A stretch of 13,843 nt of DNA from positions 1-13,843 of the forward strand of contig JALGVI010000080.1 in the NCBI GenBank assembly GCA_029838215.1, in the 5' to 3' direction. Shown one piece after another: positions 2,713-13,352 of this stretch; position 1 is the first letter of the stretch; each line of letters begins with the position of its first letter. Below the pieces are notes generated by a model, which worked only from the letters and a program-made list of their open reading frames with translations, made no database searches and had not been told where the DNA came from. The position numbers and the translations under genes are program-made. This stretch comes from Candidatus Helarchaeota archaeon (GTDB lineage Archaea; Asgardarchaeota; Lokiarchaeia; Helarchaeales; RDOG01).

Positions 2713-3417
2713 ATGTTGACGCATCACGAGGTCATAAAAGAGTCGGACATCACGATAAAAACTGACTCGCAAGAAGCAATCAGGGTAGCCGTGGATGCCA
2801 TAAAATTTCATAGGAGAGAACTTGAAAACTACATTAGCAAGAATCCTCACTATGAAAGTTCTTTCGATCCCGTGCACGTTGATGCCGATGCTCCAGAAAT
2901 CGTGAAGATCATGGCTATAGAAAGTGAAAAATGTAACGTCGGTCCAATGGCTGGTGTGGCAGGAGCCCTCGCCGATCTCGGTGTTGCAAAAATGTTACGA
3001 GTAGGAGCAACAATTGCTGTCATCGAGAATGGTGGTGAAATTGCTCTTCAGACGAACTCAACTATCAACGTGGCTGTATTGGCGGGCAAGGCAACGCTTT
3101 CGGGAAAGGTCGGTTTTCGCATCACGCCAAAAGATTGCCCCTGTGGCATTGGGACATCGAGTGGTACTGTTGGACATGCTTTTAGTTTTGGTGTCGCAGA
3201 TGCGGCTGTCGTATTTGCAGAAAATGCAACATTAGGTGACGCTGCTGCAACCGCTGTTTGTAATGCCGTCCAAGGTGAAGATGTTGAACTTTCCATTCAA
3301 AAAGGATTAGAAGTTGCAGAAACAATAAAAGGGGTTCGTGGAGCATACATTCTTCGAGATGATAAGGCAGGTACGGTAGGGATGTTACCAAAATTCATAA
3401 AAATCGTTGATTTCTAA
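2713..3417 (+). CDS. UPF0280 family protein (ApbE-like superfamily, COG2122)
   Basis: HRRELENYI...P, VGPMAGVAGALAD, IENGGEIAL, GIGTSSGTVGHAFSFGVADA and GDAAATAVCN are the characteristic UPF0280 motifs. 234 aa. Confidence 0.9.
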   Translation: MLTHHEVIKESDITIKTDSQEAIRVAVDAIKFHRRELENYISKNPHYESSFDPVHVDADAPEIVKIMAIESEKCNVGPMAGVAGALADLGVAKMLRVGATIAVIENGGEIALQTNSTINVAVLAGKATLSGKVGFRITPKDCPCGIGTSSGTVGHAFSFGVADAAVVFAENATLGDAAATAVCNAVQGEDVELSIQKGLEVAETIKGVRGAYILRDDKAGTVGMLPKFIKIVDF

Positions 3418-8355: not shown

Positions 8356-9027
8356 TTAATTTTTCTTTTTTCCAAGATAAAATCTCGAATTCTTCAGTAT
8401 TTGAAGGGCTTCCTTATCATCCACGTCGTACCAGTGCTTGTAGGCATCTGCAACGGCAAATGGCGTGGTCCGAATATTAGGACAAACGACTTCTCGGACT
8501 AATGGCTCGATTCGGGATATTGTTGAATCAGGTGCCGTAGGAACTGCAACTATCAAGGATTTTACATCTTGATCTTTCAAGGATTTGATAGCTGCGATCA
8601 TCGTAAATCCTGAAGCCAAACCATCATCCACCAAAATCACGTGTTTCTCTTTTACGTCTAGTTTCCTTTCTTCCAACTCATAAAGCTTTATTCTTTCTTC
8701 GATATTCTGTCTTGTTTGCTTGACTTGCTTGTCGATTTGATTTCGTGATAATTGAAGGTGCTGAAGAAGGGTTTCATTAAAGATGATCGTTCCATCTGAC
8801 GTTATTGCACCAAATCCTGCTTCTGGATTGTAAGGGATTTTAATCTTACGTACAATCATTAAATCGTATGGTATTTCGAGAATTTGAGCCACCGATTCTG
8901 CAACAGGAATGCCTCCATTTGGAATGCAAAGAATGAGCGCATTTTCTGTTTTATTCTTTAACAGTCCCGCTAAAACTTCACCTGCGTGTTCCCGATCCCG
9001 ATAGATTCCTCTCTTTCCGTGAAAAAT
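8356..9027 (-). CDS. Type I phosphoribosyltransferase family protein (DRxxAG / IPxGG N-terminal subfamily); start codon non-canonical or damaged
   Basis: PRPP loop VILVDDGLASGFTM, VRKIKIPYNPE, VAVPTAP and FAVADAY. Manual translation shows the frame open for 45 codons upstream of GTG 8892 (IFHGKRGIYRDREHAGEVLAGLL...LCIPNGGIPVAESV) up to an in-frame TAA at 9028-9030. Confidence 0.85.
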   Translation of the reverse strand: MFHGKRGIYRDREHAGEVLAGLLKNKTENALILCIPNGGIPVAESVAQILEIPYDLMIVRKIKIPYNPEAGFGAITSDGTIIFNETLLQHLQLSRNQIDKQVKQTRQNIEERIKLYELEERKLDVKEKHVILVDDGLASGFTMIAAIKSLKDQDVKSLIVAVPTAPDSTISRIEPLVREVVCPNIRTTPFAVADAYKHWYDVDDKEALQILKNSRFYLGKKKN

Positions 9028-9098: not shown

Positions 9099-9998
9099 TC
9101 AGTTCGCTCTATGCCGTATTGTAAGGTTTGGTCCTCCTTTGTCGTTGACCAAATATTCCTTGATTTGTTCATTCAAGGATGGAGGAAGCTCGTTCCATGT
9201 AATGCAGGCGATTTTAGTGAACGTGACGAGTTCTGAATAATTTAATGATAAATTTGTATAACCGGGACTTGTTGGTTGCAAGCAGATATGTGCATAAGAA
9301 TCCGGATTTTCTTCTCTATGAATGAAAACGTTCCCAGAATTTAGATCTATTCGGAAAAAATGAGTATCACGGAATATCAATGCTTCCGTTTCAGAATAGG
9401 AAATGCCCATGTCTTTCAACAATTCAATAAACGATTCCGATGTTTTCCTATTCCTGACCCTGAATCGCGTGCTTTGTGGATTAGCGCGAAGGGTTTCAAG
9501 CATGACTGATGCAAGCTCGGTGATTGCACCTTCAATATCTTCCTGACTTCCTCCTTCAACGTAATGACATGGTATTTGTTCGGCAAGACCTCTCACGTCT
9601 GCAGCCTGTATTTTTCTCTCATTTACTTTTTCTGCATTAAAACCAAAAAGCACGACAGGCACTCTTCCCACGTACGTCCACAATTCTCTAAGCCACCGAG
9701 GGATTTGAGGATTGAACGTGGAATATTTTGTCAAATCAAAAAATATCACGGCACCGGCTGCGCCACGATAAAAGCTTGAACGAAAAAAAGAAAATCTTTC
9801 TTGTTCAGTGATGTCCCAAATTGAGAGCGTGATTCTATCATCGTCGTTTACGGGAATGTCTTTTGTATAAACATCACAACCAATGGTTTTTTTATAATTT
9901 TTTCCAAAACTACCGCGACAAATTCCATGCAATAAATCACTTTTTTTCCTCTCACTTCCTCCTCCAATCGCTACTATTTTTAACTTGTAAACTCCCAC
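9099..9998 (-). CDS. Rab-like small GTPase domain with degenerate nucleotide-binding motifs, fused to a ~125-aa C-terminal domain of unknown function
   Basis: KIVAIG..., KTIGCDV, TLSIWDITEQERF, SSFYRGAAG, FFDLT, WLREL and VPVVLFG follow the Rab motif order. G1, G3, G4 and G5 deviate from consensus. GTG start, 6 nt after the ThiS/MoaD stop. Confidence 0.85.
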   Translation of the reverse strand: MGVYKLKIVAIGGGSERKKSDLLHGICRGSFGKNYKKTIGCDVYTKDIPVNDDDRITLSIWDITEQERFSFFRSSFYRGAAGAVIFFDLTKYSTFNPQIPRWLRELWTYVGRVPVVLFGFNAEKVNERKIQAADVRGLAEQIPCHYVEGGSQEDIEGAITELASVMLETLRANPQSTRFRVRNRKTSESFIELLKDMGISYSETEALIFRDTHFFRIDLNSGNVFIHREENPDSYAHICLQPTSPGYTNLSLNYSELVTFTKIACITWNELPPSLNEQIKEYLVNDKGGPNLTIRHRAN

Positions 9999-10004
9999 GT
10001 AGAC

Positions 10005-10205
10005 TCAACCACCTTGGAGCTTGGGCAAGATAATTATTTTAGAATCTTCCTGAATCATAGTTTCTAAATCCACGACTTTTTTACCATCAACCAAAACTGC
10101 ATGGTATCTATTGTTGAGTCCCAATTCTATCAAAAGATCCTTCAACCGCTTGCTTTCTTTTAATTGAATCGATTGAAGGAATGATTTCTTTTCGCTCATC
10201 AACAT
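10005..10205 (-). CDS. ThiS/MoaD family ubiquitin-fold (beta-grasp) protein with a C-terminal Gly-Gly
   Basis: 64-66 aa: LKDLLIELGL...AVLVDGKKV...IQEDSKIIILPKLQGG*. ATG at 10205 or 10199, with GGTGG upstream. Confidence 0.88.
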   Translation of the reverse strand: MLMSEKKSFLQSIQLKESKRLKDLLIELGLNNRYHAVLVDGKKVVDLETMIQEDSKIIILPKLQGG

Positions 10206-10328: not shown

Positions 10329-11813
10329 TCATTCTTTATGTTTTTGATGTTTTCTCAAGATGAGTTTACCGCAAAGCAATCCCGAATGCGTGGCAAGTTC
10401 TGTTCCGATGCCAAAAGATTCTGGTCCCACGTCTGCGCCTGTAAGATATAAGCCATTGATATCTGTCGTGAATCTTGGTTTGTTTTCTCCAACTTGTGTC
10501 GTGGTTTGAGCTAAACCAATACATGGTCCTCCTGCTTTTTCCCAAATCAATTCGGCATTTGTGGGCGTGAAGAAATTCTTCCAAATCACGTGATCATCAA
10601 TATTTGGAAAGATTGTTTTCACTGATTTTTCAAGCATCTGCTTCCATGGCTCATAATTTTGTGTTTCAACTGCCTTGTAACTCACTATTATCGCCGGTAG
10701 CAACAGCTGTTCTCCCTCATCCACCAAATTAGGAGACATGTTCGAAATCACGGGCAGGAAGAGCATTGGCGGATATTCTGGAACTTTACCTGTTGCCAAT
10801 TCTTCAAAATAAAATTCTGATTCTTCTTGCAAGGCAAATAGGAACGGCTCGTTTGTAAGTTTGGTATCAACCAAAAGACGCATGACTAAAACGCCCAAGC
10901 TGGGGCGAAGATCTTGAACTTGTTCAATATAATTTCGGGACCAGTACTCTTTCTTGACAAGGCTTAATGTTTCTTTCACTCCAACATTGCTAATTATGAT
11001 GTCCGATTCAAGAATGTCTCCCGTAGATGTTCTAACACCAACGACCTTTCCATCTTTCACTAGGATTTCCTGAACTCGAATCCCTTTTTTAATTTCTCCG
11101 CCATTTTTCAGTATTCCCTTAACCATTGCATCAGGAATGGCTTGACAACCGCCAATCGGATAGCACAACGACAAGCCTTTTTTATCCAGCATTGACTGCC
11201 CCGTGGCATTAATGACTGCATGAATGGCACGAAATAGTTCTCCCACGGAACCTTCATCAGCATGAGAAACCAATCCTGCGATGAACAGAAAAATTAGAAT
11301 GTCCTTGATTCCCGGAGGGAATTGTTTCTCTTCTAGCCATGACTTAAAATCTAAAGTATCGTATTTCTTCGTCTTTTTTGGTGAAACTCCCCGTAACGTG
11401 TCTGCAAGTTTTAGCAATAAATTCTCATAATTCTTCGGGTCGATTCCTTCAGGAACAACTTCTTGAAAATCAAAAGGAATTGCCCCGTCAGGACCATCAA
11501 TGTCAATTCCTACTGGTCCAAAAACCTTTTCTTTTTTCATTATTAAAAAAGGTATCTTGCGAGAATGAAACCATTCTATTTCATTTTCCACGTGTAGAAT
11601 CTTTAAAACGTCATTGATCGGACCGTATTCACCGCGATTTATGACATGGCAACCGAAATCAATGATTTTTCCTTCACGATCAAATCCTGAACAACGTCCT
11701 CCCAATACTTGATTTTTCTCGAGTAGGAGCGTTTTCCATCCATTAGAAATTAGGACTGCATTGGTAGCAAGCCCACCCAAACCGCCTCCAACGATGATGG
11801 CATCATATTTCAT
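10329..11813 (-). CDS. FAD-dependent oxidoreductase, phytoene dehydrogenase / retinol saturase-like (COG1233), copy A
   Basis: YDAIIVGGGLGG (GxGxxG), LLLEKNQVLGGRC, DFGCH, YPIGGCQAIPDAM...GGEI and C-terminal GLYLTGADVG. 494 aa. GAGGGA SD site upstream. Confidence 0.9.
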   Translation of the reverse strand: MKYDAIIVGGGLGGLATNAVLISNGWKTLLLEKNQVLGGRCSGFDREGKIIDFGCHVINRGEYGPINDVLKILHVENEIEWFHSRKIPFLIMKKEKVFGPVGIDIDGPDGAIPFDFQEVVPEGIDPKNYENLLLKLADTLRGVSPKKTKKYDTLDFKSWLEEKQFPPGIKDILIFLFIAGLVSHADEGSVGELFRAIHAVINATGQSMLDKKGLSLCYPIGGCQAIPDAMVKGILKNGGEIKKGIRVQEILVKDGKVVGVRTSTGDILESDIIISNVGVKETLSLVKKEYWSRNYIEQVQDLRPSLGVLVMRLLVDTKLTNEPFLFALQEESEFYFEELATGKVPEYPPMLFLPVISNMSPNLVDEGEQLLLPAIIVSYKAVETQNYEPWKQMLEKSVKTIFPNIDDHVIWKNFFTPTNAELIWEKAGGPCIGLAQTTTQVGENKPRFTTDINGLYLTGADVGPESFGIGTELATHSGLLCGKLILRKHQKHKE

Positions 11814-11839: not shown

Positions 11840-13352
11840 TCATTTATTTTCGATATTTCCGTTTAAGATCAATTTGGCACATTCCATGCCACTTTGAACG
11901 GCATTATCCGTTCCTATCCCCCAGACATTTTTACCTATCCCTGTTCCGACAAGGTACAATCCCTCAATGGGCGTTTTTGAATCAAGAGCCTTCTCTCCAA
12001 CCTGATCAGGATATTGACCCACGCGGATGATGCCCCGATCATATTCTGAATGCCATAATTTCTTTAAATCATCGGGTCCAAACACGTCATAAAATTCAAC
12101 GTGGGAGCGGAAATGAGGATAAAAATATTCCATGTAGGATAAAAATTGTTCTGTAACCTGATTTAATGAATAATTTATCTTATCTGGTATGGCGTAACCA
12201 AGTATCAATAATTGCTTTCCCTTCGGTGCCAGTCTTGGAGACATTACCGAAACGGCAGGAATGAACAATGTTAATGGGACATCCGTGAATTGACCCATTT
12301 TCCATTTTTCGAAATCTTCATCAAATCTTGAAGTCACGTTGAAAATAAATGGCTCTTGGGTGACTTCCTTATCCAATGCGATTTTCAAGGAGTAGGGATT
12401 AATGGCGGGTCGAATTTTTTTAATATAGTCTATATAATTATTGGTGAAGTGTTCTTTTCCTACCATGTCAAGTGTTTCTTTTGGTCCGATATTACTGACT
12501 ACAATTGAAGATTCAATGATTTCACCGCTTGCCATTTGCACTCCGCGAATCATGTCCTTGCCTTCAACAACTAGGATTCTTTCCACAGTTTGAGACGTTC
12601 GAATTTCTCCTCCGAATGATTTGATTCCAGCTCCGATCGCATCGGGTATAACCTGACAACTACCGAAAGGATAGCCCAAGGCAAGTGCCTTGACGTTTTT
12701 TGCAAATAGGGATTTTGCATTTGATTGAACCGTGTCTAACAAACATCGCAAGAATTCGCCTGCCGATCCTTCATCTGGCCAAATACAAAGCCCTGCGCAA
12801 AAAAGAAGGTACATGATCAGGCGAACTCCAAGCCCAAATTTCAAATTTTTTGCCTGACACCACTCAATGAATGATAATGAATCAGCTTCGTGCGAATTTT
12901 TATACGTGACACCATTAAGAACCGTTGCCATCTTTGTCAGAACATTATCAAACTCGTCAGGACCGACTTCCGTTCCCATTACGTCATTTAAATCAACATC
13001 TGACGGATAAGGGATGGAGGAACGCTTGGAATTTATGTCTATTCCAAAAGGTCCAACGACTTGGTTTGGTGCCATTAAATAAAACGGAATTCGAGTCAAG
13101 TGGTAAAACGTCACTGCTTCTTGTTGGTTTAAATGGGCAAGAATTTGCCCGATGGGACCAAATTCACTTCGCACGAAAATGTGCGTTTCCATAGTCAATT
13201 GTAAATCCTTTTTTCTTATAGGACGAGCAACGTCCTCCAATGGTTCCATTTCTCTCTAGGATCAGGACTTTTTTCCCTTGCTTCGCCAGAACTCCCGCAC
13301 AAGAAAGACTTGCAAGCCCTGCGCCTAGAAAAATAGCATCATACCGTGCCAA
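11840..13352 (-). pseudogene. Second COG1233 FAD-dependent oxidoreductase (copy B), split by a +1 frameshift at 13186-13188 (true lesion or assembly error)
   Basis: The N-terminal frame (TTG 13352; YDAIFLGAGLAS...ERNGTIGGRC...GFTIDYG) joins the long frame (THIFVRSEFGPIGQ...GLYLVGTG) if one A is removed from GGAAACG. The repaired protein is 503 aa and colinear with copy A. Confidence 0.85.

What the first reader, a model, noticed from the sequence alone, without database searches (positions are those of the whole stretch)
9099..9998. Rab-like pseudo-GTPase: Rab surface motifs kept, guanine-nucleotide motifs lost, extra C-terminal domain
Rab-family features are retained: TIGxD (switch I, Thr kept), xxIWD, QERF, SSFYRGA and FDLT. 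The GTP motifs are altered. G1 GxxxxGKS reads GGGSERKKS, G3 DxxG reads DITE, G4 NKxD reads FNAE, and G5 SAK reads GGS. Keeping the switch/effector surfaces while losing guanine recognition is the pattern of a pseudoenzyme scaffold or decoy. About 125 unrecognised residues follow, and there is no C-terminal CC/CxC/CaaX prenylation signal. If the host is Asgard, this is a eukaryotic-signature protein that has become a non-catalytic adaptor.
Basis: partly seen in the sequence, partly recalled or inferred. Interest (0 to 1): 0.75.

Follow-up and report, generated by a model that had tools for sequence, protein, structure and literature searches.

The report
Dead Rab GTPase with Ubl-partner domain
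An Asgard archaeal gene encodes a Rab-like protein that has lost its GTP-binding motifs and ends in an undescribed domain with an invariant cysteine; that domain is repeatedly encoded right after a small ubiquitin-like protein, so it looks like a ubiquitin-type tagging or docking module rather than a molecular switch.

Summary
Residues 1-172 are a clear Ras/Rab-like G domain (Pfam Ras E 7e-26; best solved relatives are Rab23, Rab11 and the Thorarchaeota Rab). G1, G3, G4 and G5 read GGGSERKKS, DITE, FNAE and GGS.

This is not a decaying copy. About 45 relatives from many Asgard lineages lack the same motifs while keeping the Rab switch and interswitch signature. A close orthologue pair gives dN/dS of about 0.1.

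The "unrecognised" tail (188-299) is a conserved domain with no Pfam family, found in 148 of 400 Asgard genomes. Its signature is Cys-x6-Gly-Trp/Tyr-x-Asn...Lys...Leu-Pro. The AF2 model is confident (pLDDT 89.5) but only weakly resembles the E2/UEV/RWD fold.

Six nucleotides upstream lies a 66-aa ThiS/SAMP-type ubiquitin-like gene ending in Gly-Gly. The same pairing recurs beside this domain in several lineages, with or without the Rab-like part, and involves separately duplicated Ubl copies.

Best reading: a nucleotide-independent Rab-like scaffold carrying a Ubl-handling, possibly E2-like, domain. No biochemistry or complex prediction was possible. This scan noted the same module earlier on another genome (e1-5499830).

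The parts
10005..10205 (-). First cistron: a 66-aa ThiS/SAMP-type ubiquitin-like protein ending ...LPKLQGG followed directly by the stop codon
   Evidence: translation. PF02597 ThiS E 3.5e-6, 27.9 bits against a cut-off of 22.5; SAMP2 is a weaker match. NCBIfam SAMP2 weak; five homologues all end LP[KR][IL]xGG.
10008..10016 (-). Shine-Dalgarno-like AAGGTGGT inside the last Ubl codons, about 10 nt before the GTG start; the stop-to-start gap is 6 nt (9999-10004)
   Evidence: Sequence read. The same 6-nt gap occurs in the orthologous locus L034. Translational coupling is inferred.
9483..9998 (-). Rab-like G domain (residues 1-172), a pseudo-GTPase by motif criteria
   Evidence: AF2 gives the G-domain secondary structure, with pLDDT mostly 84-96; family motif table.
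9939..9965 (-). Degenerate G1/P-loop GGGSERKKS: one-residue insertion, second Gly replaced, Lys-Ser kept
9804..9815 (-). Degenerate G3: DITE in place of DxxG
9630..9641 (-). Degenerate G4: FNAE in place of NKxD
9546..9554 (-). Degenerate G5: GGS in place of SAK
9438..9482 (-). Flexible linker, residues 173-187
   Evidence: pLDDT 56-57 across residues 171-190, below 50 for 176-184; pTM 0.63, so the relative placement of the two domains is not defined.
9102..9437 (-). C-terminal domain (CTD, residues 188-299): an unannotated Asgard family with alpha-beta4-alpha-alpha-beta secondary structure
   Evidence: no Pfam family. AF2 pLDDT 89.5, pTM 0.80; 148 of 400 Asgard genomes; conservation over 50 sequences.
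9282..9284 (-). Codon of Cys239, invariant in 50 of 50 CTD sequences. It is followed by Gly246 (100%), Tyr247 (Trp in 92%), Asn249 (88%), Lys262 (100%) and Leu271-Pro272 (96% and 100%).
9099..9101 (-). Stop codon, followed by an AT-rich spacer with an oligo-T run before the next gene (PRTase, 8356-8892)
   Evidence: That this marks the end of the transcription unit is inferred.

Best explanation
The gene is the second cistron of a two-gene unit in a Helarchaeales-like Asgard archaeon. The first gene makes a 66-aa ThiS/SAMP-type ubiquitin-like protein (Ubl) with a free C-terminal Gly-Gly. The second makes a 299-aa protein with two domains joined by a flexible linker. The N-terminal domain derives from an Asgard Rab-like GTPase. 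It has lost the P-loop geometry, the DxxG glycine and all guanine-base contacts, but keeps the Rab switch I, interswitch and switch II surface. It therefore most likely acts as a nucleotide-independent, permanently 'on-shaped' binding or targeting module (inferred). The C-terminal domain belongs to an undescribed Asgard-wide family with an invariant Cys-x6-Gly-Trp/Tyr-x-Asn...Lys...Leu-Pro signature. This domain, rather than the Rab-like part, is what is genomically tied to the Ubl. It most likely binds the Ubl or carries it on Cys239 in the manner of an HPN-less E2 such as Atg10 or UFC1 (inferred; fold and profile evidence is weak). Shown: the domain architecture, family-wide motif loss under purifying selection, and recurrent Ubl-CTD adjacency. 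Inferred: loss of GTP binding, physical Ubl-CTD interaction, any thioester chemistry, and what the Rab-like surface binds.
For: G domain and motif loss.

Not decay: in about 50 family members the G1, G3, G4 and G5 motifs are non-canonical in nearly all, while IGCD, W[DN] and FRxxFYxGA persist. For P0007 against the L053 orthologue (85% identity), dN/dS is 0.10 overall, 0.115 for the G domain and 0.08 for the CTD. The P-loop itself differs between these two (KKT against NRT), which points to relaxed constraint on that loop alone.

The CTD is a real, independent domain: AF2 pLDDT 89.5. It occurs without any G domain in P0042, P0051, P0053, P0092, L148-L155 and a 134-aa stand-alone form. It is present in 148 of 400 Asgard genomes. 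Cys239, Gly246, Lys262 and Pro272 are invariant in 50 sequences.

Ubl coupling: a 62-68 aa ORF ending in GG lies immediately upstream of CTD genes (gaps of -29 to about 80 nt; 240 nt in G128). This holds in the window, L034, both CTD genes of L053, L054, four f21 genomes (a different class), G128, L148 and L149. The pairing persists when the Rab-like domain is absent. The CTD-adjacent Ubls fall in at least three separate Ubl clades, and in f21 they are sister to that lineage's own second Ubl. This indicates repeated recruitment.

E2-like hints: in the Foldseek-independent search, about 18 of the 50 best rows are UBC/UEV/RWD-fold chains (FANCL, BRCC45, VPS37A UEV, RWD, Atg10, E2S, Tsg101, Ubc9, UbcH7 and others) that cover the whole domain, at Z 3.1-4.6. 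hhalign's best local alignment places Cys239 and Tyr247 on the catalytic Cys and following Trp of this genome's own E2, P 0.018. The Cys-to-Trp (+8) and Cys-to-Pro (+33) spacings equal those of that E2.

The genome has E1-like (8) and E2 (3-4) genes elsewhere. In type-c relatives a JAB/MPN+ protease is a conserved neighbour.
Against: No structural match reaches Z 5. The best row is an unrelated AP lyase (Z 4.7), and polo-box and p32 folds score as well as E2s in the second look.

Profile comparison with 32 Asgard E2s is not significant (P 0.24-0.3). Pfam UQ_con, Prok-E2, RWD and UEV never appear even at E 10. There is no HPN motif.

In longer relatives three extra Cys (CxxC...C) precede the invariant Cys, so there it may simply be a zinc ligand.

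Most CTD genes (about 35 loci, including the large f6 group) have no adjacent Ubl. The Ubl family is a general Asgard one, found in 238 of 400 genomes and mostly in other contexts. No E1 sits in the operon.

The JAB adjacency is convergent and confined to one order, so it may be plain synteny.

The P-loop Lys-Ser, Thr38, Asp62 and Gln66 are retained, and [KR][ST] is kept throughout the closest subclade, so some phosphate or nucleotide binding is possible.
Confidence: 0.5

Rival explanations
1. The Rab-like pseudo-GTPase plus CTD is a plain protein-protein scaffold, for example in trafficking or signalling, and the CTD has nothing to do with the Ubl. On this view the neighbouring ThiS-type gene is a sulfur carrier or general modifier that merely shares a transcript.
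For: The Ubl family is general in Asgard genomes and mostly sits elsewhere. A second, very similar copy in this genome lies next to ribosomal protein L35Ae. Most CTD genes lack an adjacent Ubl. Nothing ties the fold firmly to E2s.
Against: Ubl-CTD adjacency with gaps of 0-30 nt recurs in at least 12 loci. It spans two classes, several CTD architectures including G-domain-less forms, and at least three Ubl clades. That pattern is hard to obtain by chance or vertical inheritance alone.
Confidence: 0.25
2. The G domain is still a working but atypical NTPase or nucleotide sensor, with altered base specificity or phosphate-only binding, and not a pseudoenzyme.
For: Lys19-Ser20, Thr38, Asp62 and Gln66 are retained. 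[KR][ST], the switch-I Thr/Ser and WD are kept across the closest subclade. The last G4 position is often Glu, as in NKVE, AKAE, VKAE, FNAE and TNTE. Relative P0002 keeps intact G1 and G3 together with the CTD.
Against: There is a one-residue P-loop insertion and the second Gly is replaced by a charged residue. The DxxG Gly is lost, and G4 and G5 are unrecognisable. The P-loop Lys is not conserved between orthologues at 85% identity (K against R), is absent in the sister P0003 (DRS), and the whole P-loop is missing or scrambled in other subfamilies.
Confidence: 0.15
3. The Ubl is a Ras-binding-domain-like beta-grasp effector of the Rab-like domain, docking on switch I and beta2 as Raf-RBD does on Ras. 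On this view the CTD is an accessory.
For: RBD and RA domains have the ubiquitin fold (established knowledge). The switch I and interswitch surface is the best-conserved part of the G domain.
Against: The Ubl stays paired with CTD genes that have no G domain at all (P0053, P0092, L148, L149). A strictly conserved free C-terminal GG suggests activation chemistry rather than mere docking.
Confidence: 0.07
4. The gene is a decaying paralogue of one of the genome's many Rab-like genes.
For: It scores 92.7 bits against Pfam Ras, compared with 127-188 bits for 43 other copies in the genome.
Against: The 299-codon frame is intact and identical on three contigs from two metagenomes. Full-length orthologues at 37-41% identity share the same architecture. 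A close orthologue pair has dN/dS 0.10. The gene pairing is conserved.
Confidence: 0.02

Closest known systems
Rab GTPases (Rab23, Rab11) and the Asgard single-domain Rab-like proteins (Thorarchaeota Rab, PDB 7EZB; PMC10933270)
   Same: G-domain fold. Rab-type switch I, interswitch and switch II stretches (TIGCD, LSIWD, ERF.FFRSSFYRGA, FFDLT). Like the Asgard Rabs, no prenylatable C-terminus (PMC10933270).
   Different: G1, G3, G4 and G5 are degenerate, and there is a one-residue P-loop insertion. A 125-residue linker plus extra domain follows. The gene sits in an operon with a Ubl. In the tree the 29 canonical Rab/Ras-like copies of this genome form a separate clade with 100% support.
PseudoGTPases (CENP-M, p190RhoGAP pG1/pG2, AAGAB N-terminal domain; PMC5593906, PMC12490416)
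   Same: G fold with nucleotide motifs lost but the domain conserved, presumed to act through protein-protein contacts.
   Different: Independent origin from an Asgard Rab-like clade, archaeal, and fused to a Ubl-linked domain. Nucleotide binding has not been measured here.
UBC superfold: E2 enzymes including HPN-less Atg10, Atg3 and UFC1, and the non-catalytic UEV/RWD/FANCL-ELF domains
   Same: N-terminal helix, four-strand meander and two helices. An invariant Cys just after strand 4, with Trp/Tyr at +8 and Pro at +33 as in this genome's own E2. Encoded beside a Ubl ending in GG.
   Different: No HPN motif and no significant sequence or profile similarity. Z is at most 4.6 for these folds. 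The domain is only about 110 residues. No E1 is adjacent. Related long forms carry a CxxC...C insert.
Archaeal and bacterial ThiS/MoaD-type modifier systems (SAMP1-3 with UbaA, TtuB of Thermus, Urm1)
   Same: A small beta-grasp protein with a free C-terminal GG, weak SAMP2/TtuB/ThiS sequence matches, and E1-like genes elsewhere in the genome.
   Different: From general knowledge, those systems work without any E2-like partner. Here a dedicated Cys-bearing domain is encoded with the Ubl.
Asgard/Caldiarchaeum eukaryote-type Ub operons (Ub, E1, E2, small RING, Rpn11; PMC5654768, PMC6043591)
   Same: Same phylum-level setting, and this genome also has such E1 and E2 genes.
   Different: This unit has only a Ubl and the CTD protein. 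The Ubl is ThiS-like rather than ubiquitin-like in sequence, and the partner is not a UQ_con E2.

Membership tests
Ras-superfamily small G domain (Pfam PF00071) | Sequence and fold of the G domain | tested here: met
   PF00071 E 6.7e-26, 91 bits against a cut-off of 21.6. Rab23 and Rab11 at E 1e-19 to 1e-22. AF2 gives G-domain secondary structure.
Ras-superfamily small G domain (Pfam PF00071) | G1 P-loop GxxxxGK[ST] | tested here: not met
   Reads GGGSERKKS: one extra residue, second Gly replaced, Lys-Ser kept.
Ras-superfamily small G domain (Pfam PF00071) | G3 DxxG | tested here: not met
   Reads DITE.
Ras-superfamily small G domain (Pfam PF00071) | G4 [NT]KxD and G5 SAK (guanine recognition) | tested here: not met
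   Reads FNAE and GGS.
Ras-superfamily small G domain (Pfam PF00071) | GTP/GDP binding and hydrolysis | not testable with these tools
   Needs mant-nucleotide binding, DSF and GTPase assays.
Rab family | RabF-type switch and interswitch motifs | tested here: inconclusive
   IGCDV, LSIWD, RFSFFR, FYRGA and IFFDLT align to the Rab23/Rab11 equivalents, and the best PDB hits are all Rabs. No Rab-specific classifier or rooted tree with eukaryotic Rabs was run.
Rab family | C-terminal Cys prenylation motif (CC, CxC, CaaX) | tested here: not met
   The C-terminus is ...LTIRHRAN and the last Cys is at residue 265.
PseudoGTPase (functional class) | G fold with catalytic or binding motifs lost, conserved in orthologues under purifying selection | tested here: met
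   Motif table over about 50 members. dN/dS 0.10 for a close orthologue pair. Full-length orthologues at 37-41% identity.
PseudoGTPase (functional class) | Demonstrated lack of nucleotide binding or hydrolysis | not testable with these tools
   Biochemistry is required. The retained Lys-Ser, Thr, Asp and Gln keep this open.
UBC/E2 superfold (E2, UEV, RWD) | Alpha-beta4-alpha-alpha fold similar to solved UBC/UEV/RWD structures | tested here: inconclusive
   About 18 of 50 rows in the wide search are UBC/UEV/RWD chains covering the whole domain, but at Z 3.1-4.6. Foldseek finds nothing at E <= 0.001. The second look is mixed with polo-box and p32 folds.
UBC/E2 superfold (E2, UEV, RWD) | Significant sequence or profile similarity to UQ_con or Prok-E2 families | tested here: not met
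   No such Pfam family for 15 members at E <= 10. hhalign gives P 0.018 for a 14-column local match and P 0.24-0.3 against 32 E2s.
UBC/E2 superfold (E2, UEV, RWD) | Active-site Cys after strand 4, with a conserved Trp about 8 residues later and Pro after helix 2 | tested here: inconclusive
   Cys239 is invariant (50 of 50), with Trp/Tyr at +8 and Pro at +33, the same spacing as this genome's E2 on contig C112. The pattern is not statistically established.
UBC/E2 superfold (E2, UEV, RWD) | HPN motif before the catalytic Cys | tested here: not met
   Absent in all aligned members. From general knowledge it is also absent in Atg10, Atg3 and UFC1.
UBC/E2 superfold (E2, UEV, RWD) | Thioester with a Ubl charged by an E1 | not testable with these tools
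Biochemistry is needed.
UBC/E2 superfold (E2, UEV, RWD) | Genomic association with Ubl-system genes | tested here: met
   A Ubl-GG gene lies directly upstream in at least 12 loci of several lineages and architectures. JAB is a neighbour in type-c loci. No E1 is adjacent; eight lie elsewhere in the genome.
ThiS/MoaD/SAMP Ubl family (the upstream gene) | Beta-grasp family HMM match | tested here: met
   PF02597 at 27.9 bits against a cut-off of 22.5. Weak SAMP2, TtuB and ThiS matches.
ThiS/MoaD/SAMP Ubl family (the upstream gene) | C-terminal Gly-Gly exposed without processing | tested here: met
   ...LPKLQGG then stop. All five aligned homologues end in GG.

The most novel reading that the evidence does not exclude
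The C-terminal domain is a previously unrecognised, miniature HPN-less E2-type carrier, or an obligate Ubl receptor, dedicated to a ThiS/SAMP-type modifier. Asgard archaea would have fused it to a Rab-derived, nucleotide-independent targeting surface. That would be a two-gene module joining small-GTPase-style localisation to ubiquitin-like conjugation, formally reminiscent of the Atg8/Atg12-Atg3/Atg10 logic, in the prokaryotic lineage closest to eukaryotes.
Probability: 0.25. Interest if true: 0.85.

Novelty: new variant of a known kind. Interest (0 to 1): 0.62.

Why it matters
Asgard genomes carry dozens of Rab-like genes, and these are usually read as evidence for switch-regulated trafficking. 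This family shows that a sizeable, conserved subset cannot be classical switches. About a third of the sampled Asgard genomes carry the tail domain, mostly in such fusions.

The family also ties a Rab-type surface to ubiquitin-like protein biology through an unannotated domain. If the domain proves to be an E2-like carrier or a receptor for a SAMP/Urm1-type modifier, two things follow. It would fill a gap between E2-less archaeal sampylation and eukaryotic E1-E2 cascades. It would also give a simple two-protein system to test how GTPase-like scaffolds and Ubl tagging became linked before eukaryotes.

If it is only a scaffold, the finding is still a clean, testable prokaryotic pseudoGTPase family.

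Tried and rejected
- The look-up of sequencing runs listed no run, so no expression evidence is available either way.
- Foldseek against PDB gave nothing at E <= 0.001.
- The ESM Atlas feature search gave no usable hit. The Atlas structure search returned only unnamed or DUF bacterial clusters at TM 0.4-0.6.
- Pfam on the CTD (15 members, E <= 10) returned only scattered noise. NCBIfam and PADLOC returned nothing for the CTD.
- A word-seeded search with the CTD alone found only one other protein.
- Of four calls to the search for related loci on genome contigs, two found no searchable pattern, the type-a pattern found no relative, and the type-c pattern found one Helarchaeota MAG. Distribution outside Asgard was therefore not tested.
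- hhalign against E2 profiles was not significant.
- Pfam UEV in the own genome matched nothing, and nothing in the control genomes either, so that search is uninformative.
- Rejected: a GDI/REP-like reading of the two upstream flavoproteins. They are CrtI/phytoene-desaturase family, and they are not conserved next to the Ubl-CTD pair in L034, L053 or L054.
- Rejected: a decaying pseudogene.
- The G-domain tree is a quick, midpoint-rooted one. It does not resolve whether the CTD was fused once or several times.
- The literature searches and the papers read did not describe this architecture. That is not proof that it is unpublished; it may exist as an unnamed asCOG.
Full report
**What is there**

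The finding's coordinates hold one ORF, on the minus strand (9998 to 9099, GTG start, 299 aa). Residues 7-157 match Pfam Ras at E 6.7e-26 and Roc at 6e-18. The best solved relatives by sequence are Rab23 (8e-22), Rab11 (4e-19) and the Thorarchaeota Rab 7EZB (1e-18).

Against these, the motifs read as follows:
- G1 is GGGSERKKS, with one extra residue and the second glycine replaced.
- G3 is DITE.
- G4 is FNAE.
- G5 is GGS.

The P-loop Lys-Ser, the switch-I Thr38, Asp62 and Gln66 survive. The C-terminus (...LTIRHRAN) has no cysteine motif.

**The organism**

The window is contig C37 of a 3.6-Mb genome of 170 contigs (94% complete). It has 72 Ras-family matches, three to four UQ_con E2 genes and eight ThiF-type E1-like genes. 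Named relatives of the protein come from Helarchaeales/Helarchaeota MAGs. This is an Asgard archaeon, probably of that order.

**Decay or conserved pseudoenzyme?**

An exhaustive HMMER search found full-length relatives at 30-39% identity (P0006, P0007, P0009, P0012, P0019, P0039, P0045, P0049, P0056). The word-seeded search added P0002, P0003 and P0004.

I aligned these with about 30 further members taken from Asgard genomes. G1, G3, G4 and G5 are non-canonical in nearly all. The P-loop is scrambled, or deleted as in P0056. DxxG has lost its Gly, and NKxD and SAK are unrecognisable. Meanwhile [IL]G[CV][DN], W[DN] and F/L-R-x-x-F-Y-x-G-A persist.

Only P0002 keeps G1 and G3, and P0009 keeps G1. 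The single-domain relatives P0004 and P0013 are fully canonical.

In a quick tree the window's protein is sister to the partial Helarchaeales protein P0003 (SH-aLRT 96). It sits in a clade with P0002, P0009, P0015, P0006 and P0007. The 29 canonical Rab/Ras-like copies of the same genome form a separate clade with 100% support. In this subclade the fusion therefore seems to precede the motif loss.

For the one close orthologue pair with DNA available (P0007 against the L053 gene, 85% identity), dN/dS is 0.10 overall, 0.115 for the G domain and 0.08 for the tail. Yet their P-loops differ (KKT against NRT). The window's own gene is identical on three contigs from two metagenomes.

The pseudo-GTPase reading is therefore supported at the sequence level, and 'simple decay' is rejected. 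The closest subclade keeps [KR][ST], the switch-I Thr and WD, so I cannot exclude residual phosphate or non-guanine nucleotide binding.

**The tail is a domain**

Residues 188-299 have no Pfam, NCBIfam or PADLOC family. They nevertheless align well across the family and also occur in proteins without any G domain (P0042, P0051, P0053, P0092, L148-L155, and a 134-aa stand-alone form).

A profile of the domain matches 148 of 400 Asgard genomes. Most matches fall in 320-400-aa ORFs with a Rab-like N-terminus. This genome has a second, divergent copy on contig C47.

Over 50 sequences, Cys239, Gly246, Lys262 and Pro272 are invariant. Trp247 (Tyr in the window's protein), Asn249, Phe215 and Leu271 are nearly so. 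Longer subfamilies insert CxxC...C just before the invariant Cys.

AF2 models the domain confidently (pLDDT 89.5, pTM 0.80) as helix, four-strand meander, two helices and a final strand. In the full-length model it is joined to the G domain by a low-confidence linker, and the relative orientation is undefined (pTM 0.63).

**Fold comparison**

- Foldseek against PDB gives nothing at E <= 0.001.
- The Foldseek-independent search gives no Z above 4.7, and the top row is an unrelated AP lyase. About 18 of the 50 rows are UBC/UEV/RWD-fold chains that cover the whole domain: FANCL ELF, BRCC45 UEV, VPS37A UEV-like, two RWD domains, Atg10, E2S, Tsg101 UEV, Knl1 RWD, Ubc9, UBE2F, UbcH7 and UbcH5c.
- The second look at Foldseek's own list mixes a few E2s with polo-box and p32 folds.

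At the sequence level, hhalign's best local alignment to this genome's own E2s puts Cys239 and Tyr247 on the catalytic Cys and the following Trp (P 0.018). The Cys-to-Trp (+8) and Cys-to-Pro (+33) spacings equal those of the E2 on contig C112.

With 32 Asgard E2s the profile comparison is collinear over the whole domain but not significant (P 0.24-0.3). There is no HPN motif. I therefore treat 'E2/RWD-like' as a lead, not a result.

**Context**

Six nucleotides upstream, with an AAGGTGGT stretch inside its last codons, lies a 66-aa ThiS-family gene ending ...LPKLQGG then stop.

The same arrangement occurs in several places:
- A 62-68-aa ORF ending in GG, with gaps from -29 to about 30 nt, precedes the orthologue P0006 (L034).
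- In L053 it precedes both a Rab-like+CTD gene and a CTD-only gene in tandem.
- It precedes the CTD-only P0092 (L054).
- It precedes four genomes of a different class (f21).
- With somewhat larger gaps it occurs in G128, L148 and L149.

Because the pairing survives in proteins that lack the G domain, the Ubl's partner is the CTD and not the Rab-like part.

The reverse association is not exclusive. The Ubl family is general in Asgard genomes (238 of 400) and usually sits elsewhere. This genome's second copy lies next to rpL35Ae. The large f6 group and the type-c CTD genes have no adjacent Ubl.

In a Ubl tree, the CTD-adjacent copies fall into at least three clades. In f21 they are sister to that lineage's other Ubl. 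This points to repeated recruitment of a Ubl paralogue beside a CTD gene rather than one inherited operon.

Two weaker hints:
- Type-c genes of one order have a conserved, convergent JAB/MPN+ neighbour.
- The C47 paralogue is followed by a weak RING-like zinc-finger protein, below the Pfam cut-offs.

The two flavoprotein genes upstream of the Ubl are CrtI-family, not GDI-like. They are not conserved with the pair elsewhere.

**Explanation**

The best-supported picture is a bicistronic unit with two products. One is a GG-ended ThiS/SAMP-type modifier. The other is a protein that combines a nucleotide-independent Rab-shaped interaction surface with a Ubl-handling domain.

I rate the structural facts as solid: the architecture, conserved motif loss under selection, and recurrent Ubl-CTD adjacency. 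My odds for the functional readings are:
- functional link to the Ubl: about even;
- E2-like thioester chemistry on Cys239: about one in four;
- a plain scaffold whose Ubl neighbour is incidental: 0.25;
- an atypical but active NTPase: 0.15;
- the Ubl as an RBD-like ligand of the G domain: 0.07;
- decay: 0.02.

**Novelty**

PseudoGTPases and Asgard Rab-like proteins are both known (PMC5593906, PMC12490416, PMC10933270). The papers I could search and read describe Asgard GTPases fused to roadblock or longin domains and Ub-E1-E2-RING operons, but not this architecture or pairing.

An earlier follow-up in this same scan, on another genome, reached a very similar reading (e1-5499830). I saw it only after my own analysis. 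It is agreement between AI notes, not independent evidence.

**Limits**

I had no access to model coordinates to judge whether Cys239 is exposed. No tool reached outside the Asgard phylum for the CTD.

Noticed in passing
G000 contig C47:173-1141 (L050 173-1141, plus strand) and L050 1190-1711: A second, divergent Rab-like pseudo-GTPase plus CTD paralogue (322 aa, P-loop GHNEEHKS, with a CxxC insert) in the same genome. It is followed 48 nt downstream by a 173-aa protein with a weak RING or zinc-ribbon-like C-terminus (Prok-RING_1 and zf-RING_2, both below cut-off).
   Followed up: partly
G000 contig C87:28237-28428, minus strand (L114 3735-3929): A second copy of the same Ubl subfamily (64 aa, ending KIVGG, 97 bits to the Ubl profile). 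It is not next to a CTD gene but about 200 nt upstream of ribosomal protein L35Ae.
   Followed up: partly
L053 1430-3750 (JGI metagenome contig); similar layout in L148 (G125:C35): Tandem layout: Ubl-GG, then Rab-like+CTD (300 aa), then a second Ubl-GG, then a CTD-only protein (305 aa). The CTD-only protein has a conserved N-terminal MDYLYE..HYKGDS motif and C-terminal LRDEML.EL.RLR helices. Each CTD gene has its own Ubl.
   Followed up: partly
L051, L055, L057, L058 (type-c CTD loci, order-level relatives): A JAB/MPN+ metalloprotease gene (HSHPG...D motif; PF01398 E 3e-13) lies convergently about 10 nt from the 3' end of the Rab-like+CTD gene in four loci. It may be plain synteny within one order.
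   Followed up: partly
window 10329-11813 and 11840-13249, minus strand: Two tandem CrtI/phytoene-desaturase-family flavoproteins upstream of the Ubl. The weak Pfam GDI hit (5e-4, below cut-off) is explained by the shared flavoprotein fold. The second gene is called as 485 aa with an NAD-binding N-terminus on the identical JGI contig, against 469 aa from the first ATG here, so its start is uncertain.
   Followed up: partly
window 2713-3417, plus strand; L063, L065 and L074 upstream ORFs: A 234-aa PRK04334/UPF0280-type protein in the window has homologues lying divergently next to the Ubl-CTD pair in three f21 genomes. In the window it is about 5.7 kb from the pair. This may be coincidence.
   Followed up: no
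G000 contigs C155:19297-21001 and C13:32062-32292: Two proteins of about 430 aa with repeated RWD/UBC-like modules and a Cys-rich RING-like C-terminus. The one on C155 lies directly beside an E1-like gene. These are probably RWD-RING E3-type components of the genome's eukaryote-like ubiquitin system.
   Followed up: no
P0056 and G128:C9 (L056/L097): Members of the family in which the first beta-strand and the whole P-loop of the G domain are missing from the ORF, yet the rest of the domain and the CTD are conserved. In G128 a Ubl-GG gene lies 240 nt upstream.
   Followed up: no
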